The notes under the pieces: model-generated | What the model was told of the DNA's origin: nothing | Databases searched by the model: none | The model's input: only the letters and a program-made list of their open reading frames with translations | In this document: piece after piece, positions 1-47,431 of the stretch | How positions within the stretch are numbered: the stretch's first letter is position 1 | Layout: every line of letters starts with the position of its first letter | Source of the DNA: Candidatus Moraniibacteriota bacterium | GTDB taxonomy: Bacteria > Patescibacteriota > Minisyncoccia > Moranbacterales > UBA2206 | DNA: 64,000 nt | NCBI GenBank assembly: GCA_049303905.1 | Contig: JBAQNP010000011.1 | Span: 2,020 to 66,019 of the forward strand | Direction: 5' to 3' | Program-made: the position numbers and the translations under genes

Positions 1-673
1 GCCTCGTCTGCACGCATAGCCATACCTCCATTATTTTCAAAATTAGAATTGATTATTTCTAAATAATCATTGGCACTGGAAGAATAAGCACTGATTGCAC
101 CATATGGATTATTTATGAATTCAGAATTTTCGATATGAACTTTACCCGAACTAAAATCGAAACCACTCATTCCTGTTCCTGCCAAGGCAGTATTCAAAAA
201 AGTATTCTTAAGCATCAATTGCGGGGCATATCCGCCATTTTCAAAAACGACATAGCGAAAAAATGATTCCTTATTATCCTGATTGCCTTGGAAACTCATC
301 CCGTATTCACCAGTTTCATAACTATTATCCCCTGATTTAGTAGTGAAAACTATTTTTTCCTCTTGAGTTCCTTTGGCAATAATGTTTCCATCCGAAACCG
401 AAAGGCTGGGCGAATAAGTATAAACATCGCCTTTTTCAAATTTTATCACTGCCCCTTTTTCAATAGTAAGTGTTGCGCCGTTAGTGACAACAACCCAATT
501 ATTTATAATATGCTCTCCTTTTTCCCAAACGGTATCTTCAGCTATTTCAATTCTATCCATCCCAAGAACTACCGGTAATCTGAGACTTGAAAAAGAAAAA
601 CTGAGTGGAGAAAAGATTAATAGAAAAACAATAAGGATACAAATCGTATTTCTAATTATTTTATTTTTTGACA
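1..673 (-). CDS. secreted protein (N-terminal part; ATG at 673, ORF runs off the window start so the C-terminus is missing)
   Basis: Read by hand; absent from the ORF track because there is no stop inside the window. MSKNKIIRNTICILIVFSINLFSTQ... is a signal-peptide-like N-terminus followed by a Gly/Asn/Thr-rich soluble region. Confidence 0.5.
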
Positions 674-981
674 TTTTTGTTTTTGATAATATTAATAATT
701 AACAAGATAAATAAGGCAAGATTTATGTATGGCCAATACCCAAGAGTAAATTTAACGAGCCATTTGAGATTGTATATATTAAAAATTCTAGAATCAATAT
801 TTGAATAAAAACTTAAATAACTAAGCATAGAAAAAATAAACAATACCAGTAATTTGTTTTTTGTTTTGTAATAAACAATCGATGAAATAGAAATAGAAAA
901 TAACAAAAGGAATATTATTATATTTATTGCTCTACTTGGACTTGACCAAAACATAATTTTTTCTCCCTCAACCTCCCGCAA
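661..981 (-). CDS. small multi-pass membrane protein, hypothetical
   Basis: 106-aa ORF with 3 hydrophobic segments; overlaps the next gene start by 13 nt. Confidence 0.4.
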   Translation of the reverse strand: MREVEGEKIMFWSSPSRAINIIIFLLLFSISISSIVYYKTKNKLLVLFIFSMLSYLSFYSNIDSRIFNIYNLKWLVKFTLGYWPYINLALFILLIINIIKNKNVKK

Positions 982-1175
982 AAAAATTATTTTTATAATT
1001 CCGGCTTGAAGCGAGTTTTTTTAATTTTTATTTTAATTTTTACATTTTTATTATATTACAACTTCTTTTTTCTCGCCACAACAAAAATTACCTTATCCTT
1101 TTTTGATTGATTTTTTTCAACCAATTCTCGATTAACTTCTCTGGCTGTATTTTTAGCGATCTTCGCCTCCCCTCT

Positions 1176-1204
1176 CCCAAAAAACCACCTTCGGGTGGTT
1201 TTTG
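1176..1204 (-). terminator. Rho-independent terminator (bidirectional hairpin AAAAACCACC-TTCG-GGTGGTTTTT) downstream of the 1290..1700 gene
   Basis: Perfect 7-bp GC stem, tetraloop, A/T runs on both sides. A further GC-rich imperfect hairpin lies at 1208-1262. Confidence 0.6.
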
Positions 1205-1289
1205 AAAAAGTGTTATTTGTCCGCCCGCTTCGCCATAGCTCCAGCGAGGCGAGCCGATGAGGCGGGTTACTGAACAAAAAAATTCACCT

Positions 1290-1700
1290 TTATTGAATTA
1301 TATTTTTATAGATAAAATAAGTTGCCACTGAAACCGATGACGACAAAACCATCCCCCAAATGATATCTATAATTACTATTTTCCAAGGCCAATCTCTTAA
1401 AACTGCCCAACTAGTTAAATCAAATGTCATGTAAGTAAAGAATCCAAATAAAGCCCCATATAAAAGTGCATATGACCAAGAGTTGTTTCTAATTGCCGGA
1501 GAAATGACAAAAATAATCAAACCAACAATAAAGAGCAGGTAAAAAATTACCGCTATTGACCAATTTGGAGTAGGTCGCATTAAATGACCCATATGTTTTT
1601 GATACACCTCCTTAGCAATCACGCCCAACCAGGTTAAATCAATTATGAAAAAGATAGGCACCGCAATGAAATATAGTTTTAGAAAATTAATAATTGTCAT
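1290..1700 (-). CDS. DUF2177-like integral membrane protein
   Basis: 136 aa, 4 predicted TM segments. Pattern WLGVIAKEVYQKHMGHLMRP...WKIVIIDIIWG is reminiscent of DUF2177. Confidence 0.45.
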   Translation of the reverse strand: MTIINFLKLYFIAVPIFFIIDLTWLGVIAKEVYQKHMGHLMRPTPNWSIAVIFYLLFIVGLIIFVISPAIRNNSWSYALLYGALFGFFTYMTFDLTSWAVLRDWPWKIVIIDIIWGMVLSSSVSVATYFIYKNIIQ

Positions 1701-1795
1701 AATTTTATTTTTTAATTAATTATTATTTAAAACATATACTTCTTGCATTATATCACGATTTTTTTATTTTTACTCTTTTAGATATTGAGGCATGA

Positions 1796-2785
1796 TTATT
1801 TTTTAACCGATAATAATGTCGTAACAAGCGCTGTCATTTGATTCTTTTTGTTTGGATTGCTTTCTGCAATTAAAAGTGTCAGAGCGGTAAGTGCACTCGG
1901 GTTGATGTTTTTTGCGCCTTGTATTTTTGTTTTTCGCAAAAACCACACAAAAGCAAAAGCGCCAGAACGTTTGTTTCCGTCGTCAAATGGATGATTCTTT
2001 ACCATAAAATACAAAAGATGGGCCGCCTTTTCTTCGGCAGTAGCGTATAAATTTTTGCCACCAAATGATTGCATCACATTTCCCACTATTCCTTCCACGC
2101 TTCCCACTCTTTTTTCTCGCGCAAAAAGATCAGAGGCTTCGCCTTTTTTCATAAGTTCAGCCCGAAGTTCGCCGATCGCTTCCGCCAACTCCCTGCCTGA
2201 CAACCGAACTGCTTTTTTAGTTGTGCCAATCGCGCTCAGAGCATCTTTGTCATAAGCATCCAAAGCTACCCAGGTACTGGCAAATTCTTTGATAAGTTCC
2301 AAAACTAGTTTCGGATCAAGTGTGACATGCTCTGGTAAAAGATTTTGAATACTGGCCACTGCGCCCATAAAAGCTTCATAATTTTTGGTGATTTGTTTTT
2401 TGTTGATTGTATAGCCTTTAACAATATGCTCACGAAGAGTTTTAGTCGCCCATTGGCGAAATTTGGTTGCATTTGTAGAGTTAACTCTATAGCCTATTGA
2501 TATTATTAAATCAAGATTATAGTATTCAATTTTTCTAGTAATCTTTCTTTTTCCTTCAAGTTGAACTGTTTCCATTTTGGAAACAGTTGACTTTTCATTT
2601 AATTCTCCTGTATTAAATATATTTTTAACATGTTTAGAAATTGCTGCTTTTTTTACATCAAATAACTGGCCAACTTGCTGTTGAGTAAGTAACATAGTTT
2701 CTCGCTTTTTATCTAAGCGAACTTCCACAGCGCCATCTTTGGCTTGATAGATAATTACCTCTTTTTGTTCTTTTTTGTTTTTCAT
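1796..2785 (-). CDS. Fic/Doc family protein with N-terminal RhuM-like domain
   Basis: C-terminal Fic motif HPFDDGNKRSGAFAFVWFL (HPFx[DE]GNxR). N-terminal IIYQAKDGAVEVRLDKKRETMLLTQQQVGQLFDV resembles RhuM virulence-protein family. Confidence 0.75.
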   Translation of the reverse strand: MKNKKEQKEVIIYQAKDGAVEVRLDKKRETMLLTQQQVGQLFDVKKAAISKHVKNIFNTGELNEKSTVSKMETVQLEGKRKITRKIEYYNLDLIISIGYRVNSTNATKFRQWATKTLREHIVKGYTINKKQITKNYEAFMGAVASIQNLLPEHVTLDPKLVLELIKEFASTWVALDAYDKDALSAIGTTKKAVRLSGRELAEAIGELRAELMKKGEASDLFAREKRVGSVEGIVGNVMQSFGGKNLYATAEEKAAHLLYFMVKNHPFDDGNKRSGAFAFVWFLRKTKIQGAKNINPSALTALTLLIAESNPNKKNQMTALVTTLLSVKK

Positions 2786-2798
2786 ATCTATAATTTTT

Positions 2799-3593
2799 TT
2801 ATTTTTTTGCTTTCAACTTTTTTATCCGAGTTTTTGCTCTAGATATTCCATCTGCTGATGATAGTTCTTCCGGCATCGTTCCACCCAATTCTTCAATTGT
2901 ACGCCGAACTTTTTGCCCGACATGAAAATGTGTCAAATTTGCGTTCATTTCGCCTTGAATTTTTTCTCTGCGTAATTTCGCATCGGCTTGAGTGGCGCGA
3001 AATAAGTTAGCTGCCAACTCTTCGCTCCCCATATGATCAAGTATTTTTTGAGATTTTTTTAAACCTTTCTTTTTGTGAATATCATTTGCATCCAGCCCTC
3101 CATACAATCCCTTGTATCCATAATTTTGAAATTTTCCATAATTACTAACTCCCGCATTTTCGGCGGCTTCAGCCAAAGATGTACTATGAGTTTTTATTTC
3201 ACTGCGCAAATGCAATCGCTTATTATCCTCTATCAACTGATCTGATTTTTCTTGTCTTCGAGTTTGAATCGCAAAATATGCCTGACCCAAAGCAACTACT
3301 TCTTTGGATGGATCGGAATTTTGGATAATTAGATAACACGCATAACGAGATAAATATATGGTATCAATCGCTCTTTTTGCACCTGAACCTATTTCGACCA
3401 TTTCGTCCACATGGGAAAAATGGTTGTGGATAACTTGACCACTATTTTTACATGCTTCTTTAGCTTTATTAATAACATTTAGGAATTTATCGTAGCTGGA
3501 ATAATCAAGCGCTTTTGCCAAATCGCGAGATGACCAAAATTCACTTTGGTATTCATTAATTTTTTTAATTTTTTCAAAAATATTGTTTTTCAT
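2799..3593 (-). CDS. dinD: DNA-damage-inducible protein D (DinD) family, paralog 1
   Basis: IGSGAKRAIDTIYLSRYACYLIIQNSDPSKEVVALGQAYFAIQTRRQE block is typical of DinD. Paralogous to 6018..6836. Confidence 0.7.
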   Translation of the reverse strand: MKNNIFEKIKKINEYQSEFWSSRDLAKALDYSSYDKFLNVINKAKEACKNSGQVIHNHFSHVDEMVEIGSGAKRAIDTIYLSRYACYLIIQNSDPSKEVVALGQAYFAIQTRRQEKSDQLIEDNKRLHLRSEIKTHSTSLAEAAENAGVSNYGKFQNYGYKGLYGGLDANDIHKKKGLKKSQKILDHMGSEELAANLFRATQADAKLRREKIQGEMNANLTHFHVGQKVRRTIEELGGTMPEELSSADGISRAKTRIKKLKAKK

Positions 3594-3608
3594 ATCACTT
3601 AGTTATGT

Positions 3609-3668
3609 TTATTATAGTGATATTATACCACTCTATATATTTTTGGCAACTCCTCTGCTGTGGATAAC
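3609..3668 (-). promoter_or_regulatory. conserved promoter cassette: DnaA box GTTATCCACA, -35 TTGCCA, 16-nt spacer, extended -10 TGGTATAAT (minus strand)
   Basis: Minus-strand read gTTATCCACAgcagaggagTTGCCAaaaatatatagagTGgTATAAT. The ~60-bp cassette is nearly identical at 10398-10448 and 47452-47505. Confidence 0.55.
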
Positions 3669-3703
3669 TTCTCATTTCCAAAAAAGTGCTCCTGAACAAA
3701 AAA

Positions 3704-4459
3704 TTATTTTTCCACTTCCTTTACTGCCTGAATATAGGTGCAGTAGTCACATTCTTTTGAATATTTTGGAATTTTCGAACTCATCAGGCATTTCTTGGCG
3801 TCAATTAGAGCGCCTTCCACCCAACTGTCGTCCCCCACATAGGGAATGACTTTAACATTAAACTCCAATTTTCCATCAAAAGCCTCCTTGTCCTTGTCGC
3901 CGTTGCAATAAACAAAATATCCGGTGGTGGAAACTTTGAAGCCATTTTTGCGAAAAAGCCATTGATACATTTCCATTTGTCTTTTATAACCAATTTGCCA
4001 ATCGGCGTCCAAGCTCACTTCTCCATTTTTGGAAGTCGCCTTATAATCCACAATCAAAAGTTCGCCTTTCGGATTCACCCAAACATCATCTACTCCACCC
4101 GTGAATAATAGATTAGTTTTTGGATGCAGATATTGAATTCCTCTTCTCAAGGAATCTCGCCACTGATCCATTCGTTCGTCTTGAAACGGCACAGCGTCAA
4201 TTCCATATTCTTTCATCAAAGGATGAGTAGTTTCATTTGCCCTATGCACATCAAATTCTTTTTTTAGTAGTGCATCCACCGCTGAATTTAGATTAAACGG
4301 AAACCCCGGTGGCTGCCCAACTCCCAAACGACGATCCAAATAGAAACATCGAGGACAATTCAAAAACAGATCCAACTTAGACCGACTAATCCGAAAAGGC
4401 TCTTTTGATTTGGGATCAAAGAGATTTCTAATTCTTTTTGCTTTATAATATTCAGACAT
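3704..4459 (-). CDS. PD-(D/E)XK nuclease superfamily protein with four Cys (Cas4/RecB-nuclease-like, DUF83-like)
   Basis: GGVDDVW ... ELLIVDYKATSK gives D ... (D/E)xK. N-terminal CPRC and C-terminal CDYC cysteine pairs. Confidence 0.6.
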   Translation of the reverse strand: MSEYYKAKRIRNLFDPKSKEPFRISRSKLDLFLNCPRCFYLDRRLGVGQPPGFPFNLNSAVDALLKKEFDVHRANETTHPLMKEYGIDAVPFQDERMDQWRDSLRRGIQYLHPKTNLLFTGGVDDVWVNPKGELLIVDYKATSKNGEVSLDADWQIGYKRQMEMYQWLFRKNGFKVSTTGYFVYCNGDKDKEAFDGKLEFNVKVIPYVGDDSWVEGALIDAKKCLMSSKIPKYSKECDYCTYIQAVKEVEK

Positions 4460-4670
4460 AATTATTTTTTGAAAAAAGTGTTACTTAACATGTTACTGAA
4501 CAAAAATTTATTTTTGAAATATAAAAAGATGCTCATGCATAATTAGAAGAAAATTACTTTTTTTAGATTGTGTTATTTTTTATTCTAGCATTATCTTAAG
4601 AAAATAAAAACTAGCTAATCAAAGCTAGTTTATAATTAAACATTTAAAATATGCTTGCATGCCTTTAAAA

Positions 4671-5069
4671 TCAACTTTTTGAAATAATAGTGATTTTAAA
4701 ATCTGCCGGCTCTTCGATAGTGCCCGTCAAAAAAGACACTACTTGATCTGGTGTTGTTTGGGATTGAAGTAAATTTATCATCATAAAACTAGGTGGCAAT
4801 AAATCACAAGAATACAAAACTTTTGTATCTTCAAGATATTTTTCAATTTCAGGATAAGTAGTTGATTGATTATAACCATTGGAAGTAATGTATATAACGA
4901 AAAATTCATCTTGACTGATTTCTTGCGAAGTTTTAGATTGAACATTTGCCGATGATGAATCACAAACATAAAATTGCCCACCATCATTAAAACTTCCAGT
5001 ATGCACTTCTAGAACAACCCCGTCAACATCCCTAAGGGTTGATTCATTATTTTTTTCTAAATCTATCAT
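4671..5069 (-). CDS. hypothetical protein
   Basis: 132-aa ORF, no recognisable motif. Confidence 0.4.
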   Translation of the reverse strand: MIDLEKNNESTLRDVDGVVLEVHTGSFNDGGQFYVCDSSSANVQSKTSQEISQDEFFVIYITSNGYNQSTTYPEIEKYLEDTKVLYSCDLLPPSFMMINLLQSQTTPDQVVSFLTGTIEEPADFKITIISKS

Positions 5070-5203
5070 ATTATTTTTTTCACTCTCCTACTCCAGGTTT
5101 CCCATTGGGTTTGGCAGAATGAATTATTAATTTATTAAATATTTTGCTTTCTATTATAACGCTATCAAAAAAAATCAGTCAATTTTCGTAATTTAAAAAT
5201 AAA

Positions 5204-5950
5204 CTATTTTAATTTTGCTATTTCTTTGAGCCTACCAACAACATCACTATTGTAAATTGGCTCATATTTACTAACGATCTCATTAAACAATATGGTTGTT
5301 GGTATTGAGTTTATGGTTAGATTAACCCCAATATTAATATTTTTCGGTATTGGGTCTAAAAAAGAACTCCTTTGCTTATCGCTAATATTTCCGATAGTTA
5401 TTGAACTACTCGTACTAGATTGAGGTTCTGACGAAAAGTTATTTATTTTTTGAATAAAAGGAGATAATTGTTGATTAACTTGTTCTTTAGCTTGATTTTT
5501 AATATCATCATGAATTCTTGAATCGAAATTAATATCTGAAACCATTTTAATTATTGAATCTAAATATTCGCCCGTAGAATATAAGTCACTTATTTTATCT
5601 AAATTTTCAAATGGCATTTCTTCTATAAAATAATGCATATTATTAGCCCAACTATTTGTAGCGATTATTTTTTTAGTAAATTTAAAATGACCATGTTCTT
5701 TGTAATCAGAAATAATTTTTTCTGCTCTCTTAATTTCTTGTAAAATCGTCTTCGCAGCATCTTTTTTGTTATCGATTTTTTGAACTATATAAAGAACAAT
5801 TGCAACTATACCAACTATTAAAGTAACAAGCCAACTCAAAAAAACAGAGTTGGCAAATTTTTCATATTTTTGATAGATGAAATATAATAAACTAATAGCT
5901 ATGCCTAAAACTAACACTACCGTTGAAATTAAATTCTTATTTTTAAACAT
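5204..5950 (-). CDS. membrane-anchored hypothetical protein (2 N-terminal TM helices)
   Basis: 248-aa ORF; N-terminal LISTVVLVLGIAISLLYFIY and LVTLIVGIVAIVLYIV hydrophobic helices. Confidence 0.45.
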   Translation of the reverse strand: MFKNKNLISTVVLVLGIAISLLYFIYQKYEKFANSVFLSWLVTLIVGIVAIVLYIVQKIDNKKDAAKTILQEIKRAEKIISDYKEHGHFKFTKKIIATNSWANNMHYFIEEMPFENLDKISDLYSTGEYLDSIIKMVSDINFDSRIHDDIKNQAKEQVNQQLSPFIQKINNFSSEPQSSTSSSITIGNISDKQRSSFLDPIPKNINIGVNLTINSIPTTILFNEIVSKYEPIYNSDVVGRLKEIAKLK

Positions 5951-6017
5951 AATTTTATTTCCACCCCCTACTTAATCATCCTCCACACAATTTGTTACCG
6001 TGAAGGATACTGAAAAT

Positions 6018-6836
6018 TTATTTTTTACTTTTTTTCAACAATTTTTTCTTTTCTTTTTTCAATTCTTTGATATGTTTTTCAGTCGGTAATTCCTCTGGCA
6101 GAGTTCCGCCAATATCTTTGATAGTTTGTCGAACTTTTCCACCAATCATAAAGTGCGTTTGTGATGCATCACGATCACCTCGAATATTATCTTTTTTGAT
6201 TTTCTCGTCAGTTTGCGTAATTCGAAAAAGATTTGCCGCTAATTCAGTTGTTCCTGCCCTATCCAACAATTCACCTTTCTTGATACTTTTTCTATTTTCT
6301 ATTTCAGCCAACGACATTCCATACAATCCTTTATATCCTGCATCATTGAATGATCCAAATTTTGTAACTCCCGCTTTTTTTGCAGTTTTGAAAAGTTTTT
6401 TATTGTGATCTGAAACTTCACCTCGAATAAACAATCTTTTATCCACCCCTGAAAGTCCTTGGAATATTTCTTGTTTTCTGGTTTGAATCGCAAAGTAGGT
6501 TTGAGCCATAGCAATCTCCTGTTTTTTAGGATCACCATTTTGTGCAACCAAATAACAAGCATACCTATCCAATTTCCAGTCCCTCACTTCTCTTACTGTA
6601 TTTGAACCAATTTCGACCATTTTACTAAGTGCGGTAAAATGGTTATCCACAGCCTGACCGCTATTGATACATGCTTTAGCCGCCCTAGCTATAACCTCCT
6701 CGGCATTCTGCCATTTTTCATATCCCAAAACCAACATCAATTCGCGTGCTTCCCAATATTCAACACCACTCCTATCAACTTTTTTAATGTTTTCAAAATT
6801 TTTATTCAACGAATTTATGATTAACTCTTTTGTCAT
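6018..6836 (-). CDS. dinD: DinD family protein, paralog 2
   Basis: IGSNTVREVRDWKLDRYACYLVAQNGDPKKQEIAMAQTYFAIQTRKQE is the same conserved core as 2799..3593. Confidence 0.7.
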   Translation of the reverse strand: MTKELIINSLNKNFENIKKVDRSGVEYWEARELMLVLGYEKWQNAEEVIARAAKACINSGQAVDNHFTALSKMVEIGSNTVREVRDWKLDRYACYLVAQNGDPKKQEIAMAQTYFAIQTRKQEIFQGLSGVDKRLFIRGEVSDHNKKLFKTAKKAGVTKFGSFNDAGYKGLYGMSLAEIENRKSIKKGELLDRAGTTELAANLFRITQTDEKIKKDNIRGDRDASQTHFMIGGKVRQTIKDIGGTLPEELPTEKHIKELKKEKKKLLKKSKK

Positions 6837-6853
6837 ATTGACTTATTTTATTT

Positions 6854-7879
6854 TTATTTCCACCCCTGCCCAATTGCTCTCCAAATAATTTGTTCTTGAG
6901 GAACATTAATCATACCTTGCGGAGTTTGTTGTTGAACATTTTGTTGAACTTTTTTAAATTCCATATTAATTTCAAAAAAATTGGAAATTTCAGCACTTTC
7001 TACAAAAGCAATTTTATAACCTTTGCGATTCATTGCTTGATTTTCTCCCAATTCCAATTCGGGATTCCAAACTTGGCGAGTTTTCATTTCTTCAGCATAA
7101 TCTTCATAAATTTCTGTCATAAGATTTGCAAGTTCTGTGTCTGCGTTAACTACAGTTTTTATCCCCAAATCTTCCCTGGCTTCTTTTCTACCAATAAAAT
7201 ATTGATGGGAATATAATTTTTCTGTTAGAAATTCAATTATTTTTTCAATTTCTTCATCTTTCATTTTTTCTTTATGACTCTTGAGTAATCTTTTGGCAAG
7301 AATTTTTATCAACTCATGTGTTCGATTTACATTTCCCAAAGCCAATGGATGAATTGAGGGAGTAGCTTCTACAAATTTATTGAAAATTTTAACTAATTCC
7401 TCATCACCTTTTATTCCAAATTTATTTTTTGCCAAATCAAAGTAACTCATCACTTCTTCCACAGAAATCGGAATGCGATTTTGTGGATTTTTTGGATCAA
7501 TAGGATTGAAAACATTGGCGGTTGATGGATCAATCGGCGAAAGTTCACTCATATCACTCATCACAATTTCATCAGCTCCAAGTGCAATCATTGTCGCCGC
7601 ACTATGTGCTTTGTAAGGAATAATAACAGAAAACTTTTCGCAATATTCACGAATCATAGAAACTAAACGCCACGGAGTCATTGTGTCTCCACCAGCACTA
7701 TATAATATTAAATCTATTTTTTCTTGTTTTCCAATGCGTCGCAATTGTGAACTGATAATTGGAATAATATCCATTGCTACTCGAGCATTCACTGGTCCTT
7801 GTCGATCACTAGTTGCATAAGTTATAACCTTTGAACCTCTCTTGGTTTCAATTTTTTTGATCAAATCTTTCGTATTCAT
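6854..7879 (-). CDS. ClpP/crotonase-fold serine protease (SDH / S49-like family)
   Basis: LILYSAGGDTMTPWRLVSMIREY...AHSAATMIALGADEIVMSDMSELSPIDPS has SppA/SDH-proteinase-like nucleophile-serine context. 17 nt upstream of dinD paralog 2, same strand. Confidence 0.55.
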   Translation of the reverse strand: MNTKDLIKKIETKRGSKVITYATSDRQGPVNARVAMDIIPIISSQLRRIGKQEKIDLILYSAGGDTMTPWRLVSMIREYCEKFSVIIPYKAHSAATMIALGADEIVMSDMSELSPIDPSTANVFNPIDPKNPQNRIPISVEEVMSYFDLAKNKFGIKGDEELVKIFNKFVEATPSIHPLALGNVNRTHELIKILAKRLLKSHKEKMKDEEIEKIIEFLTEKLYSHQYFIGRKEAREDLGIKTVVNADTELANLMTEIYEDYAEEMKTRQVWNPELELGENQAMNRKGYKIAFVESAEISNFFEINMEFKKVQQNVQQQTPQGMINVPQEQIIWRAIGQGWK

Positions 7880-8012
7880 AAAATTATTAAAGTTTTATTT
7901 AAAATTAAAAAATTACTCTAGTGATAGTATAACATTCTCATAAAAAATGTCAATTTTTTCATTGGCCATTTTAAAAAGGTTTATTTTACCCCATATTTTT
8001 AGAGACTTTTAT

Positions 8013-8507
8013 TTAAATTAAGATAATACTTTTTTCATCTTTCAATTCAGCTCCTATGACATTATCAAATAGTGATTCTTTAAGCCATTTATTTTTCTGT
8101 GTAAAATTATCGAAAGCTTCTTTAACATCATTCCCTTTTCCCCACCCTAATATTTGGCAATTCTCAACTTCTGGAAAATTATCCTCGGATCCTGGATAAA
8201 AAGTATAACCCTCGGTGGTATAGAAAATAAAATTTTTTATAGCTTTTATGTTGGTGATTTTTTCCAAAAATCCCTTCGACATTAATTTCAAAGTTTCTTC
8301 ATCTAAATTTTGTAAATTTTCCCACAATTCAAAAGTTTGATATTTTTCATCTTCTTCAATATTTTCCCACTCATCAGCCTCGATTTCTACAAAATCATCA
8401 TCTTCATCAGAATATTCTTTGCACATCACCAAAAATGGAAAATAGAAATCAGGATTTTCATCCAAGTATTTTAATATTTTTATCGCCAACTCTCTTGAAA
8501 TTTTCAT
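8013..8507 (-). CDS. acidic hypothetical protein, possible DpnD-like partner of the DpnI-like gene
   Basis: 164 aa, Asp/Glu-rich. Lies immediately downstream of the DpnI homolog, as dpnD does in the pneumococcal DpnI cassette (positional inference only). Confidence 0.4.
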   Translation of the reverse strand: MKISRELAIKILKYLDENPDFYFPFLVMCKEYSDEDDDFVEIEADEWENIEEDEKYQTFELWENLQNLDEETLKLMSKGFLEKITNIKAIKNFIFYTTEGYTFYPGSEDNFPEVENCQILGWGKGNDVKEAFDNFTQKNKWLKESLFDNVIGAELKDEKSIILI

Positions 8508-8571
8508 AAAATTGAACAGAAATTAATTTTTATTTCTGATCAATTTTTGATCGAATTTGAATTATTGTCAA

Positions 8572-9336
8572 CTAGCTCAATTTATATTTTCCTGGCTCAA
8601 TAAATTTTAAATATCCCTTGTCTCGCAAAAATTGCAATTGTTGACGAATTTTTGGCTTAATATTGTTATTTTCTGGATGAATAATAGCTAAATTTTTTTC
8701 AAAAGCATAGATATCTTGCAGAGAAAATTCTTTTTTACCCAAAGATTCAATACAATTCATAATATCCAAAATCCAACCTTTCAAATCTGTCCTTTTTATT
8801 TTTTTCAAAAAAGCAGTTTTTTGCCATTTTTTCAAAACTTCTTTTTTGGAAATTTCAGTTCCATTTTCTACATAAAAAATCTTGCCTGAATTGGGAATTT
8901 TATAAAATAAGATATTTGAACCAATCCAACCAGCTCTGCGTGCATTTTCTGACAAAGCTTTTCTTTTTTCAATAATTTCAGGAACAAAAAAATATTTTGG
9001 AACAATAAAAAAATCATTAACGGAAAATGTGGCTAAATATCCCATAAAAAAGAAATGTGGATTTTGTGGCGATTCTATTCTTTTTATTATCTGCGAATAT
9101 GCACCCGCTGAAACCTTTTTGCCAATTTTTCCTTTTTTGGATTTTAATTCAAAATCTTCTGAACATTTTTCACAATAAAAATCCGCTACAGGCTTATTGT
9201 TAGTATAATTTTCAATTTTATCTCCGCAGTTCGGACAATAAATTTCACTCCCAACCCACGCTTCAGTCAAAACTCTTATTTTTTGAGAATTACTATTATA
9301 TTTTTCCGCTAATTTTAAATCAAAAAATGTGTTCAT
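8572..9336 (-). CDS. dpnC: DpnI-like methyl-directed (Gm6ATC) type IIM restriction endonuclease
   Basis: 254 aa, the same length as DpnI. Blocks YNSNSQKIRVLTEAWV, YCPNCG, NKPVADFYCEKCSEDFELKSKKG, RRAGWIGSNI and IRQQLQFLRDKGYLKF match my recollection of S. pneumoniae DpnI almost residue-for-residue. Confidence 0.8.
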   Translation of the reverse strand: MNTFFDLKLAEKYNSNSQKIRVLTEAWVGSEIYCPNCGDKIENYTNNKPVADFYCEKCSEDFELKSKKGKIGKKVSAGAYSQIIKRIESPQNPHFFFMGYLATFSVNDFFIVPKYFFVPEIIEKRKALSENARRAGWIGSNILFYKIPNSGKIFYVENGTEISKKEVLKKWQKTAFLKKIKRTDLKGWILDIMNCIESLGKKEFSLQDIYAFEKNLAIIHPENNNIKPKIRQQLQFLRDKGYLKFIEPGKYKLS

Positions 9337-9413
9337 ATTTTCACCTATTTTAAGCCATTTTATACAGCCACTTGACTTTTACTTATTTATGGCTTAAAAT
9401 AAAAGATAAGAAA

Positions 9414-9519
9414 TCGGTATATGTGCGGATAGCCATGGCCGGTTTTTTTGTTGTATTTTTTCGAAAAAAGTGTACTATTATATATAAGGAGTCGGTATAT
9501 GTGCGGATAGCCATGGCCG
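9414..9519. repeat. two copies of a 28-nt direct repeat TCGGTATATGTGCGGATAGCCATGGCCG (9414-9441, 9492-9519), each followed by a T-run, with palindromic core GCCATGGC
   Basis: Exact 28/28 identity. Located between the DUF3800 stop and the DpnI-like start. A plus-strand TTGACT-N17-TAAAAT lies just upstream (9368-9400). Confidence 0.6.
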
Positions 9520-9528
9520 ACTTTTTTA

Positions 9529-10269
9529 TTATACAAGTATCTCGAAAATGCCAAGTCCCTTATCCATTTTTCTCTCAATTAGTCTTTTCATCATTCTCTC
9601 AACTTTTGTAAGTTTTTTCAGTTTACCCATTTTCATTTCATATACCATATCAGCCATCAAGGCCAGACTATCTGCTATTTGTATATCATCATCAAGATTT
9701 AATTTATTTACCAAACTTAATGATGTAATTTTTCCACGATAATCTGAACCGTTTATGCCCTCTGAAGGAATTCCGACTCCTTGTAATCTAGTGTGAGCCT
9801 CAATTAAATATTTATCTTGAGCTGGATCTGATTCAACAATAATTTTTCCATAAATCTTATCCTTCAAATGTTTTTTAACAAATTCTTCTAATATTTTATG
9901 ATAAGATTTTCTAAGTATTGCAATTTCATTCCATCCTATCTTCCTAGCCTTACCTTTATCGGTTATCACAAATGCAGGAGATATTTTATCTGAATTTAAA
10001 ATAGTCGTGAATTCTGACCAAAATTGAATCTCCTTCTCTCTGTCTTCTCTAAAAAAAGCAAAGGGTCCCTTTCTGCGGATCATATCCCTGCAATGAAATA
10101 CGATTTCCTCATCATCAAAATGTTTCTTTTTTAATTTGCACATTGCCCTATTAAGCTGGGCTTTAAAACTTTCTGGAATAATTATTCCAGACAAAATAAA
10201 ATTTTTTGATTTATGCTTCAAACTAGCCTTTCCCGTTTCATCGATAGCTAAAATTTTATATTTTTTCAT
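9529..10269 (-). CDS. DUF3800 family protein
   Basis: N-terminal KILAIDETGKAS matches the DUF3800 signature (YIDESG-like start); 246 aa. Confidence 0.55.
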   Translation of the reverse strand: MKKYKILAIDETGKASLKHKSKNFILSGIIIPESFKAQLNRAMCKLKKKHFDDEEIVFHCRDMIRRKGPFAFFREDREKEIQFWSEFTTILNSDKISPAFVITDKGKARKIGWNEIAILRKSYHKILEEFVKKHLKDKIYGKIIVESDPAQDKYLIEAHTRLQGVGIPSEGINGSDYRGKITSLSLVNKLNLDDDIQIADSLALMADMVYEMKMGKLKKLTKVERMMKRLIERKMDKGLGIFEILV

Positions 10270-10397
10270 AATTTTCCGATGGATCTACTTTTATATTCGA
10301 CAAAAAAAACCGCAAATGAATTGGATGAACATTTATTTTAGTTGCAATGTTTTGTATTGTTTCCTGTGTCATTTTTATTTTCTATTTTAAAACTCAA

Positions 10398-10448
10398 TGA
10401 TATTATATCACTCTGCATAATTTTGGCAAGTCTTGGATTGTGGATAAC
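10398..10448 (-). promoter_or_regulatory. conserved promoter cassette with DnaA box (copy 2)
   Basis: Minus-strand read gTTATCCACAatccaagacTTGCCAaaattatgcagagTGaTATAAT; aligns with 3609-3668 and 47452-47505. Confidence 0.55.
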
Positions 10449-10940
10449 CTTACTTCCCGCCTCATCGGCGGACAGGTTTCCAATCACTAATTACAAAATT
10501 CTCCCTATTAAAAAATTTAAATTTTATTGGCACTTCAAGCATAATTTTAGAAAAATAACTAAACTTTTTATATAAACTAAATCCCTGTTTTTGTTTATGT
10601 TGTCAACTACAATATAAACTAACTTTTAAAAAGGCTTATTAATTTTCAACTCACTAATTACAAAATTCTTCCTACTAAATATCGCTTCGCTATTAAACAG
10701 AGTAAACCCCAACTTTTTTCACCCCCACCCCGAATTAATTATGCTATTCTCACTCTTTAATTCTACCCCCATCCCCCCTTTTCGTAAAGAAAAAGCCCGG
10801 ATCGGACTTTTTCTTTTTTTTGCGAATTTTTCTAATTTTCAACCCCAATTTTCCAAACACCTTTTTCCAAAGTTTTCACGCTTTTGTCAATATAATCGTG
10901 AAAATGTGGTTAAAATTAGTGCATTTTCACGGTTTTGACT

Positions 10941-11663
10941 TTAGCTTTGAAATTTCGGGATTTTGTTTTCGGCTGGTCGGCCGGCTTTTTTCCAAGCGGA
11001 AAAAGTGTTAAATTTTGCATAACTAATGGCGATAATTTTTTCTTTGGGTTCGCTTTTCCCGCAGGTGCGAGAAAAATAAACAACATATTCGGGTTTTTTT
11101 ATCCAGCTCAAAGAATCAGCCAATGCAAAAAGATCTGAAACTACCTTGTCAGTTTTTTCCTCAAAATCAGAGAAGGTGCTCACTTCAAAAATCATTTTAA
11201 CATTTCCTCTTTCACTGTTCACGATTACATCCGCTTCGATATAGTGCTTGCCTTCTTTCGGTCCGACTTTGACATATCTCCCAAGTTCAACAAGTTCAAA
11301 TGGATATTTATATTTCTCAACTAATTCTACATAAAGTTGAGCTTTAACAAGATTCTCTTCCTGCTCCTTTGATTCCTGCTTGTCTCCGGATAAATAAACC
11401 ACTCTGGATTCGTCGCGGATAATCAGAGTCTTGGCAAAAACTTGCGAAGCATACTTTCTTTCTCCTTTGTCAGCTAGACAAAATCCTTTGTTATTATTTT
11501 TATTTTCCAGAAGTGTTTCGAATTTTTCTGCTGAAAGAACCACCATCTTAGGACACCCTCTTTCTGTGAGAGTATAGTATGTATCACCTTTTTGCACTTC
11601 TTCGGCAATGTTAAAAATATTTTTTCTGGCCGATGTGATCGACAAAGTTGTTTTTGTACGCAT
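10941..11663 (-). CDS. fusion protein: N-terminal Phd/YefM antitoxin-like domain + C-terminal restriction-endonuclease-fold (HsdR-N/PD-(D/E)XK-like) domain
   Basis: N-terminal TLSITSARKNIFNIAEEVQKGDTYYTLTERGCPKMVVLSAEKFETL is YefM-like. C-terminal HYIEADVIVNSERGNVKMIFEVS resembles the D...E.K core. Confidence 0.5.
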   Translation of the reverse strand: MRTKTTLSITSARKNIFNIAEEVQKGDTYYTLTERGCPKMVVLSAEKFETLLENKNNNKGFCLADKGERKYASQVFAKTLIIRDESRVVYLSGDKQESKEQEENLVKAQLYVELVEKYKYPFELVELGRYVKVGPKEGKHYIEADVIVNSERGNVKMIFEVSTFSDFEEKTDKVVSDLFALADSLSWIKKPEYVVYFSRTCGKSEPKEKIIAISYAKFNTFSAWKKAGRPAENKIPKFQS

Positions 11664-11714
11664 TTTTTATTTTTAATTTAGAAGTTATGCGTACATAATA
11701 GCGTACATAGCATT

Positions 11715-12380
11715 TTATAGCAAGCCCTCACACTTCAAACTCAAAAAAGAATTTTCACTCACAATCACATGATCCGTTATTTCAATCCCAAGTATGTTTC
11801 CCGCTTCTACTAAGCGCTTGGTGATTTCCAAATCATCTTGCGAAGGATTCACGTCCCCTGACGGATGGTTGTGGCAAATTATTATCTGCGCAGCACAGTG
11901 GCGAATAGCCGGTTCGAAAACTTCCCGCGGATGAATTAAATTGGCGTTGAGAATTCCGACAGAGATAATTTCCCGTTGGATTTTTTGATTGCGCGTGTCC
12001 AAGTAGAAAACTACGAAATGTTCTTTCTTATTATCACGAATATCTTTCAAATTTTCCCACGTATCACGTGGGGACAAAATCAACTCAGTTTTTTTGCCAT
12101 TGAGAAATCTCCTGCCCAATTCAAAACAAGCTAAAATCTCCGCCGATTTGACCGGGCCAAGTCCGAAAGTTTTTTTGAGCTCAGAAAAACTCGCCTGAGA
12201 AATTCCCTCTCGGCCGAATTTTCGCAGAATTTTTTTAGAAATTTCAACCACACTCAAATCTTTTGTTCCACTTCGAAGAATTATCGCCAGAAGTTCCGAA
12301 TCAGACAGTTTCCCTGGACCATATTTTTCCATTTTTTCCCGCGGTCGATCGATACGCGGAATATCTTTTATTCTTGACAT
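11715..12380 (-). CDS. radC: RadC / UPF0758 JAB-domain protein
   Basis: JAMM motif HNHPSG and the SDSELLAIILRSGT helix-hairpin-helix region. Promoter TTGCAA-N16-TGGTATAAT ends 6 nt before the ATG, so likely leaderless. Confidence 0.85.
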   Translation of the reverse strand: MSRIKDIPRIDRPREKMEKYGPGKLSDSELLAIILRSGTKDLSVVEISKKILRKFGREGISQASFSELKKTFGLGPVKSAEILACFELGRRFLNGKKTELILSPRDTWENLKDIRDNKKEHFVVFYLDTRNQKIQREIISVGILNANLIHPREVFEPAIRHCAAQIIICHNHPSGDVNPSQDDLEITKRLVEAGNILGIEITDHVIVSENSFLSLKCEGLL

Positions 12381-12418
12381 AATGATATTATACCACTAAA
12401 AAATATTTTTGCAATATC

Positions 12419-46585: not shown

Positions 46586-47431
46586 TTAATTCAATTTTTT
46601 CACAGATTTTTTCTTAGGCAGATAATTCTCCCCAGTCACAATTGATTTTCCAATTTTTTCTTCCAGTGCCGTTCTGGCATCTTTGGCAATTTTCCCGCCT
46701 TTTATCGCTGGAATTTTATTCTCCTCTAAACCTTTGGCTTCGTCTGTTTCTGCAATTCTTCTGGTGGAAAGTTCCGCCAAGGCGGTAAAGATTAATTCCT
46801 CTTCGCTCATATGGTCTCGTAAATTTTGTGTTTTGAGACCTTTCAAGTTTTTATGCGCTTTTACAGATAAATCACTCCACTCTTTATGAATAATATTAGT
46901 CAGAATTGCAAACTCATCTCCCTTTTTCACACCACTCTCAGACCAATAATCCGTTAATTTATTTCTAGTTTCTTGCCCGGTCATTCTTTGTTGTATCCAT
47001 TTTTCACTTCGCCCTTGTTTTTGCCAGTATTCACGACTGCGATTAAGTGCCTTTTCCGGATCACTCATTTCCTGCATTCGTTCATAACCAACCCTAGCCA
47101 ACCAAAGTTTGATTGGCTCGGCTTTTTTGCTAGGCACGGATTGGATGAGTCGCAAAATTGTTTCTGTGTTTGCCACATCAGTTTCTCTCATTTTTCCATC
47201 CTCTGCTAATAATTTCAACCGGTTACAATTTGTAACCACTTCACTTCCTTCTTTTACTAGGCGGTTTTTTAAAACCTTCCAATAATTTCTTGCTAATTGA
47301 AAATCTATCTGTTCTGTTAAAGCGGCAACGATATCAATTACCGAAAAATACCAAGTTTCTATTTTTTCGTCGTAGTGACGACGAATCTTAAAATCTTCAA
47401 AAATGACGAGTGAGTTATATTTGTTTTTCAT
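46586..47431 (-). CDS. Bro-N domain protein (phage antirepressor-like)
   Basis: N-terminal FEDFKIRRHYDEKIETWYFSVIDIVAAL resembles the Bro-N domain. Confidence 0.5.
   Translation of the reverse strand: MKNKYNSLVIFEDFKIRRHYDEKIETWYFSVIDIVAALTEQIDFQLARNYWKVLKNRLVKEGSEVVTNCNRLKLLAEDGKMRETDVANTETILRLIQSVPSKKAEPIKLWLARVGYERMQEMSDPEKALNRSREYWQKQGRSEKWIQQRMTGQETRNKLTDYWSESGVKKGDEFAILTNIIHKEWSDLSVKAHKNLKGLKTQNLRDHMSEEELIFTALAELSTRRIAETDEAKGLEENKIPAIKGGKIAKDARTALEEKIGKSIVTGENYLPKKKSVKKLN

What the first reader, a model, noticed from the sequence alone, without database searches (positions are those of the whole stretch)
1796..7879. Duplicated DinD modules combined with Fic, Cas4-like nuclease and a ClpP-fold protease
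Two DinD paralogs lie 2.4 kb apart, and each is the middle gene of a minus-strand trio. One trio is Cys4 PD-(D/E)XK nuclease -> DinD -> Fic/RhuM. The other is SDH/S49-type serine protease -> DinD -> two unknown membrane/soluble proteins (5204-5950, 4671-5069). E. coli DinD is an SOS-induced protein of poorly defined function. Here it is repeatedly coupled with toxin/effector-like partners (AMPylase, nuclease, protease) behind the DnaA-box promoter. This looks like a modular, possibly novel, DinD-centred defence or stress system rather than housekeeping SOS.
Basis: inference. Interest (0 to 1): 0.55.

Follow-up and report, generated by a model that had tools for sequence, protein, structure and literature searches.

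The report
Patchwork defence island, not DinD system
The genes are all there, but they form a mosaic of independently exchanged defence-type cassettes in a Moranbacteria (CPR) genome rather than one DinD-centred machine; the one part not yet catalogued is a protease plus membrane-protein pair that often travels with DinD-family genes.

Summary
All seven genes exist as described. Both DinD copies pass NCBI's DinD model, but they belong to different subfamilies: they are 46% identical to each other, while DinD1 is 59% identical to E. coli DinD. This is not a local duplication.

DinD and the RhuM-Fic protein already exist in PADLOC as single-gene defence candidates (PDC-S13, PDC-S23). In about 81 DinD1-like loci the recurrent neighbours are type I R-M (15), type III R-M (6), LexA (5) and RhuM (4). 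The Cas4-like nuclease recurs once. In a sister genome it is replaced by an unrelated gene, and a promoter separates it from DinD1. Trio 1 is therefore not a unit. The "Fic" domain carries a Doc-type motif (HPFDDGNKR), which predicts a kinase, not an AMPylase.

Trio 2 is partly real but protease-centred. The SDH ClpP-fold protease sits directly upstream of the 248-aa protein's family (two transmembrane helices) in all five contexts seen. It adjoins a DinD-family gene in six of eleven contexts. A 40-bp remnant of a protease 3' end lies just upstream of the 248-aa gene, which shows DinD2 arrived by recombination. This protease/membrane-protein pair is not in PADLOC and is the only possibly new element.

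The parts
1796..2785 (-). RhuM N-terminal region fused to a Doc-type Fic domain (PADLOC PDC-S23; NCBI name 'virulence protein RhuM/Fic/DOC family'). Starts 13 bp after DinD1.
   Evidence: Motif HPFDDGNKR at residue 265. Plasmid homologues are about 40% identical over the full length.
2799..3593 (-). DinD1: Bro-N domain plus DinD C-terminal region; E. coli-type DinD subfamily (PDC-S13).
   Evidence: NF008573, 360 bits against a 242 cut-off. PDC-S13 1e-108. 59% identical to E. coli DinD.
3622..3667 (-). Promoter module of the DinD1/RhuM-Doc unit: DnaA box TTATCCACA, then -35 TTGCCA, then an extended -10 TGgTATAAT.
   Evidence: The same module occurs upstream of unrelated genes in other Moranbacteria loci.
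3704..4459 (-). Stand-alone Cas4-like PD-(D/E)XK nuclease with Cys pairs; a separate cassette.
   Evidence: PF12705 1e-12. Cas4 model 32 bits, below the 65-bit cut-off. No CRISPR array in the window. Replaced by an unrelated 176-aa gene in sister locus L019.
4508..4568 (-). Conserved 60-bp element upstream of the nuclease slot. It contains the 10-codon micro-ORF MHEHLF(I/V)FQK (4508-4540).
   Evidence: 85% identical to L019 9025-9085, with synonymous differences inside the micro-ORF.
4608..4631 (-). Terminator-like hairpin after the 132-aa gene; the likely end of the protease-side transcription unit(s).
4671..5069 (-). 132-aa soluble near-orphan protein with its own promoter-like site (5182-5153).
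   Evidence: No hit in any family library. Only 3 other clusters among 1.84 billion representatives. Promoter-like site.
5204..5950 (-). 248-aa protein with two N-terminal TM helices, long helices, a disordered Ser-rich linker (residues 177-214) and a conserved C-terminal helix. Partner of the SDH protease.
   Evidence: TM prediction. AF2 pLDDT 76, no fold match. About 110 CPR homologues. The protease lies immediately upstream in L119, L131-136 and L137.
5955..5994 (-). Decayed remnant of the 3' end of an SDH-protease gene (reads QIVWRMIK*), directly upstream of the 248-aa gene.
   Evidence: blastn to the protease 3' ends of L113, L119 and L121. Alignment A3..
6018..6836 (-). DinD2: second DinD subfamily (PDC-S13). 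Starts 17 bp after the protease.
   Evidence: NF008573, 334 bits. PDC-S13 6e-106. The protease+DinD2 block is 76% identical in DNA to L113.
6854..7879 (-). SDH-family ClpP-fold serine protease: conserved Ser93 in YKAHSAATMI and oxyanion motif LYSxGGD, followed by a C-terminal beta-sheet domain. First gene of the unit.
   Evidence: PF01972. phrog_11747 1e-44. Alignment A5. AF2 model and Foldseek match to ClpP and SppA.
7926..7953 (-). Promoter-like site of the protease unit (TTGACA-16-TATACT, with TG before the -10). No DnaA box.
8013..12380 (-). Rest of the island: 164-aa unknown, DpnI-type methyl-directed restriction enzyme, DUF3800, Phd/YefM-fusion protein, RadC.
46586..47431 (-). Third DinD-family gene of the window (BroN2 type, PADLOC PDLC04920), behind the same DnaA-box promoter module.

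Best explanation
Window 1796-12380 is a mosaic defence ('conflict') island of a Candidatus Moraniibacteriota genome. It is built from cassettes that are exchanged separately, not from one DinD-centred machine.

Unit A (7953-5204, perhaps to 4671) is an SDH-type ClpP-fold serine protease whose evolutionary partner is the 248-aa protein with two TM helices. DinD2 sits between them because a 'protease-DinD2' block recombined in front of an older 'protease-248-aa' block, leaving 40 bp of the second protease gene. My inference on mechanism: the protease cleaves its membrane partner, probably in the disordered Ser-rich linker. This would activate or remove a membrane-active effector. The DinD-family protein (Bro-N DNA-binding domain) would act as a DNA- or RecA-filament-sensing or regulatory accessory.

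Unit B is a free-standing Cas4-like nuclease cassette.

Unit C (3667-1796) is a two-gene operon behind a DnaA-box promoter: DinD1 plus a RhuM-N/Doc fusion. My inference: the Doc-type domain arrests translation by phosphorylating EF-Tu, as phage P1 Doc does, when triggered by infection or DNA stress.

Shown: the gene families, the boundaries of the homology blocks, the recurrent neighbourhoods, the protease remnant, the Doc motif and the ClpP fold. Inferred: every biochemical step and the defence phenotype.
For: Family assignments:
-.

DinD subfamilies and contexts:
- The two DinD genes belong to distinct subfamilies.
- DinD1-like genes lie mostly inside type I (15) or type III (6) R-M operons, or next to LexA (5) or RhuM (4), among about 81 loci.
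- DinD2-like genes occur alone, in a type I R-M operon that also carries Fic, or after the protease.

Exchange of separate cassettes:
- DNA homology between the window and other loci stops at gene boundaries: protease alone in 5 loci, protease+DinD2 in L113, DinD2 alone in L103, DinD1 alone in L019.
- Sister genome L019 carries a KAP NTPase in place of the protease block, and an unrelated 176-aa gene in place of the nuclease. Both lie between conserved flanks.
- GC content varies from 0.26 to 0.42 across the island.

Protease and its partners:
- The protease is followed directly by a homologue of the 248-aa protein in L137 (6-bp gap) and L131-136, and by one after an intervening 94-aa gene in L119.
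- The protease 3' remnant lies at 5955-5994.
- PDC-S13-family genes adjoin the protease on either side in the window, L113, L116, L117, L131 and L134.
- Other protease contexts carry type III R-M, HNH, Vsr/HpaII, Fic, MazE and RadC.
- ClpP fold and invariant Ser motif.

Unit C:
- Doc motif.
- A RhuM (PDC-S05) representative gave about 1000-fold protection against T7 and T5 in E. coli (PMC12881386).
Against: - No experiment bears on any gene of this island.
- The protease is unusually conserved for a defence gene (72-90% amino-acid identity, fixed length), which would also fit a housekeeping role.
- Only 11 protease contexts were sampled, and 4 of them were reached through a partner gene, so the fractions are rough.
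- The 81 DinD loci include a few near-duplicates.
- The 248-aa protein has no fold match, so 'effector' is a guess.
- Operon structure rests on consensus scans only.
- The protease is not in PADLOC, and the literature search found nothing on it in defence.
Confidence: 0.6

Rival explanations
1. One reading: one integrated, DinD-centred modular system in which DinD is the common adaptor that controls interchangeable toxic effectors (nuclease, Fic, protease), arranged as two parallel trios.
For: - Gene order is as described.
- Gaps are tight: protease-DinD2 17 bp and DinD1-RhuM/Fic 13 bp.
- DinD-family genes recur beside the protease and beside Fic/RhuM.
- A PADLOC model represents a Bro-N/RhuM fusion, and another a DinD/HsdS fusion.
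Against: - The nuclease lies next to DinD in 1 of about 81 loci, in the opposite order. A promoter-like site separates it from DinD1, and the sister genome carries another gene in its place.
- The closest DinD1 and DinD2 relatives lack all three partners.
- RhuM/Fic/DOC homologues lack DinD.
- The protease occurs without any DinD-family gene in 5 of 11 contexts, while the 248-aa family was never seen without the protease.
Confidence: 0.1
2. The protease and the 248-aa membrane protein are a housekeeping pair for membrane-protein processing or quality control, like NfeD/STOPP-stomatin or SppA. They merely flank a hotspot where selfish and defence genes, including DinD2, accumulate. Only the DinD, RhuM-Doc, DpnI and similar genes would be conflict genes.
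For: - Very high conservation and fixed length of the protease across many CPR genomes, with DNA identity only about 75-78% at 80-90% protein identity. This suggests long purifying selection rather than recent transfer.
- A membrane protein is encoded within a few genes of the protease in every sampled context.
- The ClpP/SppA fold.
- The downstream cargo is highly variable.
Against: - The genes upstream of the protease also differ in every context (rpoC, dnaN-trxB, tsf, ftsA, RadC-MazE, rplT), so it is not a fixed core locus.
- The sister genome has a KAP NTPase where the window has the protease block.
- DinD-family genes lie on either side of the protease, not only in a downstream hotspot.
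- Homologues in phages sit in moron-like positions, one next to HicAB.
Confidence: 0.2
3. The DinD genes are ordinary DNA-damage (SOS-type) RecA modulators, as in E. coli. Their neighbours are coincidental, and the DnaA-box promoter ties DinD1 to replication stress.
For: - DinD1 is 59% identical to E. coli DinD.
- E. coli dinD is LexA-regulated and its product inhibits postsynaptic RecA filaments (PMC6590174; Uranga 2011, as cited in PMC8989531).
- LexA lies next to DinD in 5 loci.
- A DnaA box lies upstream of DinD1.
Against: - There are three DinD-family genes in one 64-kb stretch of a small genome.
- DinD-family genes are recurrently embedded between R-M subunits and are PADLOC guilt-by-embedding candidates.
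- The position of DinD1 differs between sister genomes, and the gene is frameshifted in L019.
- The DnaA-box promoter module also drives unrelated genes.
Confidence: 0.1

Closest known systems
PADLOC phage-defence candidate PDC-S13 (DinD-like Bro-N proteins)
   Same: Both DinD genes and the third gene at 46586-47431 match PDC-S13 models nearly end to end (E 1e-106 to 1e-118). Homologues lie between HsdM and HsdS, or between type III Mod and Res, as the guilt-by-embedding definition expects.
   Different: In this window none of the three copies is embedded in an R-M operon. One follows a ClpP-fold protease and one precedes a RhuM-Doc gene. PDC-S13 appears nowhere in the searched paper library, so I found no published test of it.
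PADLOC PDC-S23 / PDC-S05 (RhuM and RhuM/Fic/DOC family proteins)
   Same: Full-length match to PDC-S23 (2e-112). The N-terminal 135 residues match PDC-S05 RhuM models. A PDC-S05 member protects E. coli against T7, T5 and T4 (PMC12881386).
   Different: The C-terminal half is a Doc-type Fic domain instead of the RhuM C-terminal region. Here the gene is coupled (13-bp gap) to DinD1, which plasmid homologues are not.
Phd-Doc toxin-antitoxin (phage P1 Doc kinase) and SoFic
   Same: The catalytic motif HPFDDGNKR fits the Doc consensus HxFx(D/N)(A/G)NKR. There are weak hits to the DOC_P1 model (27 bits, below its 38.65-bit cut-off) and to the Doc-like PHROG.
   Different: No Phd antitoxin gene is adjacent; the only Phd-like gene lies 8 kb away, fused to another domain. 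The Doc domain is fused to a RhuM N-terminal region. SoFic proteins have the canonical GNGR motif.
ClpP-fold membrane-protein proteases encoded next to a membrane protein (NfeD/STOPP-stomatin, SppA). The NfeD comparison is recalled from general knowledge and was not tested here.
   Same: A ClpP/crotonase-fold serine protease encoded directly upstream of a small membrane protein. SppA is among the structural matches.
   Different: The protease itself has no TM segment. It belongs to the SDH family (PF01972) and has an extra C-terminal beta domain. The partner is not an SPFH/stomatin protein and has no fold match. The neighbourhood is rich in defence genes.
Bacterial gasdermin plus adjacent protease (functional analogy only, recalled from general knowledge)
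   Same: The idea of a protease encoded next to a membrane-targeting protein in a defence island, activated by cleavage of a C-terminal segment.
   Different: No sequence or fold similarity to gasdermins, and the protease is of a different class. Cleavage is purely hypothetical here.
E. coli DinD (SOS gene, RecA-filament inhibitor)
   Same: DinD1 is 59% identical over the full length and passes the equivalog model.
   Different: E. coli dinD stands alone among housekeeping genes. Here there are three family members in cassette-like, variable contexts. LexA control was not examined.

Membership tests
DinD (NCBIfam NF008573 equivalog) | Full-length match above the curated cut-off (242 bits) | tested here: met
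   360.6 and 334.4 bits.
DinD (NCBIfam NF008573 equivalog) | LexA/SOS-regulated expression | not tested
   No LexA-box search was made. DinD1 has a DnaA-box promoter. LexA genes adjoin DinD in 5 other loci.
DinD (NCBIfam NF008573 equivalog) | Inhibition of postsynaptic RecA filaments | not testable with these tools
   Biochemical property reported for E. coli DinD (Uranga 2011, cited in PMC8989531).
PADLOC PDC-S13 | HMM match to a PDC-S13 model | tested here: met
   1e-108, 6e-106 and 5.7e-118.
PADLOC PDC-S13 | Embedded within a known defence system (guilt by embedding) | tested here: not met
   No R-M, BREX or similar genes flank any of the three copies in the window. The feature is met by homologues elsewhere: 21 of about 81 loci, and L129.
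PADLOC PDC-S23 (RhuM/Fic/DOC) | Full-length HMM match | tested here: met
   2.1e-112, residues 6-326 against model positions 3-324 of 327.
Doc toxins (Fic superfamily) | Motif HxFx(D/N)(A/G)NKR | tested here: met
   HPFDDGNKR at residue 265. Also present in 3 of 4 plasmid homologues.
Doc toxins (Fic superfamily) | Adjacent Phd-type antitoxin gene | tested here: not met
   The upstream gene is DinD1. The only PhdYeFM domain is at 10941-11663.
AMPylating Fic proteins | Motif HxFx(D/E)GNGR | tested here: not met
   Lys replaces the second Gly.
Cas4 | Score above the TIGR00372 cut-off (65 bits) | tested here: not met
   32.2 bits. Only the generic PD-(D/E)XK family PF12705 passes.
Cas4 | Location next to cas genes or a CRISPR array | tested here: not met
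   No CRISPR-like repeat array in the 64-kb window. No cas genes among the neighbours.
SDH-family ClpP-fold serine proteinase (Pfam PF01972 / NCBIfam NF047768) | Pfam match above the gathering score | tested here: met
   70.9 bits against 31.3, but covering only residues 3-123.
SDH-family ClpP-fold serine proteinase (Pfam PF01972 / NCBIfam NF047768) | NCBIfam equivalog cut-off (250 bits) | tested here: not met
   72.6 bits. It is a divergent subfamily with a different C-terminal half.
SDH-family ClpP-fold serine proteinase (Pfam PF01972 / NCBIfam NF047768) | ClpP/crotonase fold with a conserved nucleophile Ser and an oxyanion GG motif | tested here: met
   Foldseek match to ClpP (probability 1.0, TM-score 0.62 relative to the target) and to SppA. 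Ser93, LYSxGGD and several His and Asp residues are invariant in 47 sequences.
Phage prohead (head-maturation) protease | Location among capsid, portal and scaffold genes | tested here: not met
   No structural phage genes nearby. The head-protease PHROG hits are weak (7e-11) compared with phrog_11747 of unknown function (1e-44).

The most novel reading that the evidence does not exclude
The SDH-type ClpP-fold protease and the two-TM helical protein of the 248-aa family, often joined by a DinD-family (Bro-N) DNA-binding protein, form a previously undescribed anti-phage or stress system largely confined to Patescibacteria. In it, regulated proteolysis of the membrane partner (cleavage in its disordered linker) switches on a membrane-active effector. 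DinD-type proteins would supply the DNA- or RecA-linked trigger.
Probability: 0.25. Interest if true: 0.7.

Novelty: new variant of a known kind. Interest (0 to 1): 0.4.

Why it matters
Very few defence systems have been described in Patescibacteria (stated in bioRxiv 10.1101/2025.02.28.640651), so this island gives a concrete and testable set.

(i) A DinD plus RhuM-Doc operon could show what the widespread but untested PDC-S13 family does. It could also link the long-obscure E. coli SOS protein DinD to phage defence.

(ii) The protease/membrane-protein pair is absent from the defence catalogue searched here. Its genomic behaviour is that of a conserved head gene with swapped partners, and a recombination scar is visible in this window. 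That points to a protease-controlled membrane effector.

If neither unit protects against phage, the region is simply one more mosaic of catalogued candidate genes.

Tried and rejected
- Local tandem duplication of DinD: rejected. The copies are 46% identical and DinD1 is closer to E. coli DinD.
- Nuclease-DinD-Fic as a unit: rejected.
- CRISPR-linked Cas4: rejected. There is no repeat array, and the score is below the cut-off.
- Prophage head protease: rejected. There are no structural genes nearby.
- AMPylase reading of the Fic domain: rejected in favour of a Doc-type kinase motif.
- Searches of viral contigs with DinD2, the protease and RhuM-Fic gave one distant DinD hit and otherwise nothing.
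- PDB sequence searches with four of the proteins gave nothing.
- Foldseek with the 248-aa model gave only generic long-helix noise.
- Rfam found nothing in 1-13000.
- The repeat finder missed the protease remnant because of a 1-nt indel. It was found by blastn against other loci instead.
- The window's own DinD2 protein (P0001) is not indexed for the contig look-up.
- Literature searches for PDC-S13, or for SDH/PF01972 proteases in defence, found nothing relevant.
- The Uranga 2011 paper itself is not held in the library.

Full report
**1. What is in the sequence**

- 1796-2785 combines the first 69 positions of the RhuM profile with a Fic/Doc domain. It matches PADLOC PDC-S23 over its whole length (2e-112).
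- 2799-3593 (DinD1) and 6018-6836 (DinD2) both exceed the curated cut-off of NCBIfam NF008573, 'DNA damage-inducible protein D' (360 and 334 bits against 242). Both match PADLOC PDC-S13.
- 3704-4459 is a PD-(D/E)XK nuclease with Cys pairs. It passes only the generic Pfam family and falls below the Cas4 cut-off. The window has no CRISPR-like array.
- 6854-7879 is an SDH-type ClpP-fold protease.
- 5204-5950 has two predicted TM helices, and 4671-5069 has none. Neither hits any family library.
- Upstream on the same strand lie a 164-aa unknown, a DpnI-type methyl-directed restriction enzyme, DUF3800, a Phd-fusion protein and RadC. Housekeeping genes follow.

The region is therefore a defence-type island in a genome of about 33% GC. 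The window's own proteins are recorded in NCBI as Candidatus Moraniibacteriota.

**2. The two DinD genes are not a local duplication**

They are 46% identical to each other, whereas DinD1 is 59% identical to E. coli DinD. A third family member of the 'BroN2' type (PADLOC PDLC04920, 5.7e-118) lies at 46586-47431.

**3. Signals within the island**

Gaps are tight only between protease and DinD2 (17 bp) and between DinD1 and RhuM-Fic (13 bp).

- Strong promoter-like sites lie upstream of the protease (7953-7926), the 132-aa gene (5182-5153) and DinD1 (3649-3622).
- A terminator-like hairpin follows the 132-aa gene (4631-4608).
- The 'DnaA-box promoter' is real but belongs to DinD1 only. A TTATCCACA box sits just upstream of the -35 element, followed by an extended -10.
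- This same module recurs upstream of DUF3800, upstream of the third DinD-family gene, and upstream of unrelated genes in other Moranbacteria loci. It is a lineage-wide promoter type.
- The protease promoter has no such box.

**4. Neighbourhoods of DinD1-type genes**

I fetched 100 loci, 20 from genomes and 80 from metagenomes, with DinD1 identity of 54-91%. Neighbours were clustered and cluster representatives were annotated.

Among about 81 loci with usable flanks (a few are near-duplicates):

| Neighbour or context | Loci |
|---|---|
| Inside a type I R-M operon (typically HsdM-DinD-HsdS) | 15 |
| Inside a type III R-M operon (Mod-DinD-Res) | 6 |
| Next to LexA | 5 |
| RhuM within two genes | 4 |
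| Canonical Fic within two genes | 2 |
| Homologue of the nuclease, downstream rather than upstream (L009) | 1 |
| Distant protease homologue 5.7 kb away (one genomic context, present as duplicate loci L010/L022) | 1 |

(Nuclease and protease counts.) This fits how PADLOC defined its PDC candidates, by guilt by embedding (PMC12881386). It also fits published type I R-M loci that carry dinD- and RhuM-domain genes between the hsd genes (PMC9881135).

**5. The sister genome shows cassette exchange**

Loci L001 and L019 come from close relatives, with 83-95% protein identity to window genes at 47-55 kb.

- L019 reads DpnI, 164-aa homologue, a KAP-family NTPase, a 60-bp conserved element, an unrelated 176-aa gene, then DinD1 (frameshifted).
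- Window 8252-4568 (protease, DinD2, 248-aa and 132-aa genes) and window 4508-3636 (nuclease) therefore occupy two slots that hold other genes in the relative.
- More generally, DNA homology between the window and other loci ends at gene boundaries.
- GC content ranges from 0.26 to 0.42 across the island.

The nuclease-DinD1-Fic 'trio' is thus an accidental adjacency, apart from the DinD1/RhuM-Doc pair.

**6. The RhuM-Fic protein**

Its catalytic motif is HPFDDGNKR. This fits the Doc consensus HxFx(D/N)(A/G)NKR rather than the AMPylase motif HxFx(D/E)GNGR (PMC4177925).

- P1 Doc is a kinase that inactivates EF-Tu (same source).
- Full-length homologues of about 40% identity, annotated 'virulence protein RhuM/Fic/DOC family', occur on Vibrio, Legionella, Pseudomonas and other plasmids. 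Three of the four examined keep the NKR motif.
- In those four contexts there is no DinD nearby. One lies between HsdS and HsdR.
- A RhuM-domain candidate (PDC-S05) has been shown to protect E. coli against T7, T5 and T4.
- A PADLOC model (PDLC04871) aligns with the DinD N-terminus and then with the RhuM N-terminus, which indicates that natural fusions exist.

The DinD-RhuM/Fic link is therefore recurrent but optional.

**7. The protease side is the interesting part**

The protease family is large, with 2,084 hits, and strikingly uniform: the top 120 are 72-100% identical and nearly all 338-345 aa long.

I sampled eleven distinct contexts, counting the window. Four of the ten outside contexts were reached through a partner gene or a shared contig length, so the fractions below are rough.

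- The upstream genes differ every time (rpoC; dnaN-trxB; tsf-TPR; an SLFN/AlbA-type ATPase; ftsA; RadC-MazE; rplT).
- Downstream cargo is variable and often defence-like: type III Mod/Res twice, and HNH, an HpaII fragment, Vsr and Fic once.
- Partner 1, the 248-aa family. A homologue follows the protease directly in L137 (6-bp gap, 64% identity) and in L131-136 (51% identity over the N-terminal 143 residues). In L119 it follows after a 94-aa TM protein.
- Every context of that family that I could inspect has the protease immediately upstream, or one small gene away.
- Partner 2, the DinD family. A DinD-family gene adjoins the protease in the window, L113-115 (DinD2 type, 4-bp gap), L116 (N-terminal fragment), L117/118 (BroN2 type), L131-133/135 (BroN2 upstream) and L134/136 (DinD plus BroN2 upstream).
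- BroN2 is PADLOC PDC-S13 model PDLC04920 (4.6e-119).

**8. A recombination scar explains the window's gene order**

Directly upstream of the 248-aa gene, at 5955-5994, lies a 40-nt copy of the end of a protease gene, including its stop codon.

- It is 80-88% identical to the protease 3' ends of L113, L119 and L121, which makes it closer to those alleles than to the window's own protease.
- It now reads QIVWRMIK* in place of the family's QIVWRxxGQGWK*.
- The protease+DinD2 block is collinear with L113 at 76% DNA identity.

The simplest history is that a 'protease-DinD2' unit recombined in front of a 'protease-248-aa' unit and most of the second protease gene was deleted. DinD2 is an insertion into a protease/membrane-protein pair, not the hub of a trio.

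**9. Structure**

- The protease model (pLDDT 77) has a ClpP/crotonase-fold N-terminal part. Foldseek matches ClpP with probability 1.0 and TM-score 0.62 relative to the target, and also matches SppA.
- It also has a confident C-terminal beta-sheet domain.
- Ser93 in YKAHSAATMI, the LYSxGGD motif and several His and Asp residues are invariant in 47 sequences. An active enzyme is therefore likely.
- The 248-aa model (pLDDT 76, from 79 diverse sequences) is all-helical. It has two TM helices, long helical hairpins, a disordered Ser-rich stretch (177-214) and a conserved C-terminal helix. It has no significant PDB match.
- The 132-aa protein is nearly an orphan, with three other clusters among 1.84 billion representatives.
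- Distant protease homologues in phages sit in moron-like positions, one beside HicAB.

**10. Most likely function**

These are inferences; nothing was tested.

- Unit C (DinD1 plus RhuM-N/Doc) most likely acts as a toxin-type abortive module. A Doc-type kinase domain would stop translation. The RhuM N-terminal region and/or DinD1 would serve as sensor or restraint. DinD1 has a Bro-N DNA-binding domain, and its E. coli relative inhibits postsynaptic RecA filaments.
- Unit A most likely works as a protease/substrate pair at the membrane, with cleavage in the disordered linker switching the membrane protein on or off. DinD-family proteins would be optional DNA-linked accessories.
- The main rival is that the protease pair is housekeeping and merely borders an insertion hotspot. 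The protease's very high conservation favours that view. The variable upstream context, its absence from the equivalent slot in the sister genome, and DinD-family genes on either side argue against it.

**11. Novelty and score**

DinD-like and RhuM/Fic/DOC genes are already catalogued defence candidates, and the island as a whole is an ordinary mosaic.

The protease/248-aa pair and its link to PDC-S13 genes are absent from PADLOC v2.0.0, and my literature searches found nothing on them.

I rate the finding as a new variant of a known kind, interest 0.4. There is roughly a one-in-four chance that the protease module is a genuinely new CPR defence system.

Noticed in passing
window 3615-3667(-), 10395-10447(-), about 47450-47504(-); also L001 (two sites), L004, L012, L019, L023, L103, L116: A highly conserved promoter module: aAGTTATCCACAg, 7-8 nt, TTGCCa, about 12 nt, AGTGATATAATATCA. 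A perfect DnaA box sits just upstream of the -35 element. It drives unrelated genes (DinD-family genes, DUF3800, the SDH protease) in several Moranbacteria genomes. TTATCCACA occurs 5 times in the window against 0.54 expected; two of the five lie inside DinD coding sequence.
   Followed up: partly
window 4508-4540(-), within the conserved element 4508-4568; L019 9025-9085: A 10-codon micro-ORF, MHEHLF(I/V)FQK*, is conserved between the window and sister locus L019, with mostly synonymous differences. It lies upstream of different genes (the nuclease here, an unrelated 176-aa gene there). It could be a leader peptide or the remnant of a gene's 3' end.
   Followed up: no
window 9399-9455 and 9477-9533: Two direct copies (84% identical) of a 57-nt element containing a GC-rich hairpin-like core (CGGTATATGTGCGGATAGCCATGGCCG) followed by a T-run. 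They lie between DUF3800 and DpnI and could be tandem terminators or a small repeat element.
   Followed up: no
window 46586-47431(-): A third DinD-family (PDC-S13, PDLC04920 type) gene, about 40 kb from the finding. It is 48-52% identical to the BroN2 genes that adjoin the SDH protease in other genomes.
   Followed up: partly
L019 10001-10790; L118 2398-3228; L116 6033-6314: DinD-family genes are frameshifted or truncated in several relatives: DinD1 in L019, BroN2 in L118, and a 93-aa Bro-N fragment in L116. This suggests frequent decay of these genes.
   Followed up: no
L010/L022 9284-9943, L015, L016, L001: A LexA-type repressor gene (LexA DNA-binding domain plus S24 peptidase) lies next to DinD1-like genes in five loci, four of them in CPR genomes. 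In L010 the order is LexA, DinD, HsdM, an unknown gene, HsdS.
   Followed up: partly
L113 8348-8890, L123 6100-6546, L121 7308-7820; L116 6350-6631 and L119 6025-6309: Two further small TM-protein families recur downstream of the SDH protease: a 148-180-aa single-TM family (36% identity between L113 and L123, with only a weak match to the three-TM L121 protein) and a 93-94-aa C-terminally anchored family (70% identity). None is in Pfam or PADLOC.
   Followed up: partly
L143 (Gordonia phage BeeGee gp31) and L144 (Porphyromonas phage, 293-aa protein): Phage homologues of the SDH protease share the LILHxPGG, MSA(A/G)TM and GPIDPQ motifs. They sit in moron-like positions, after a minor tail protein gene in one phage and beside HicAB in the other.
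   Followed up: partly
window 15030-17396(-): A 788-aa ORF with D-Ala-D-Ala ligase domains in its first half and further ATP-grasp matches in its second half. It looks like a tandem fusion of two Ddl-like proteins.
   Followed up: no
L007, L012-L014, L017 (MAGs labelled Bdellovibrionales or Gammaproteobacteria): DinD1-type genes 68-80% identical to the window's occur on contigs binned to non-CPR bacteria. Either DinD moves between phyla or these contigs are mis-binned. L012 carries the Moranbacteria-type DnaA-box promoter.
   Followed up: no
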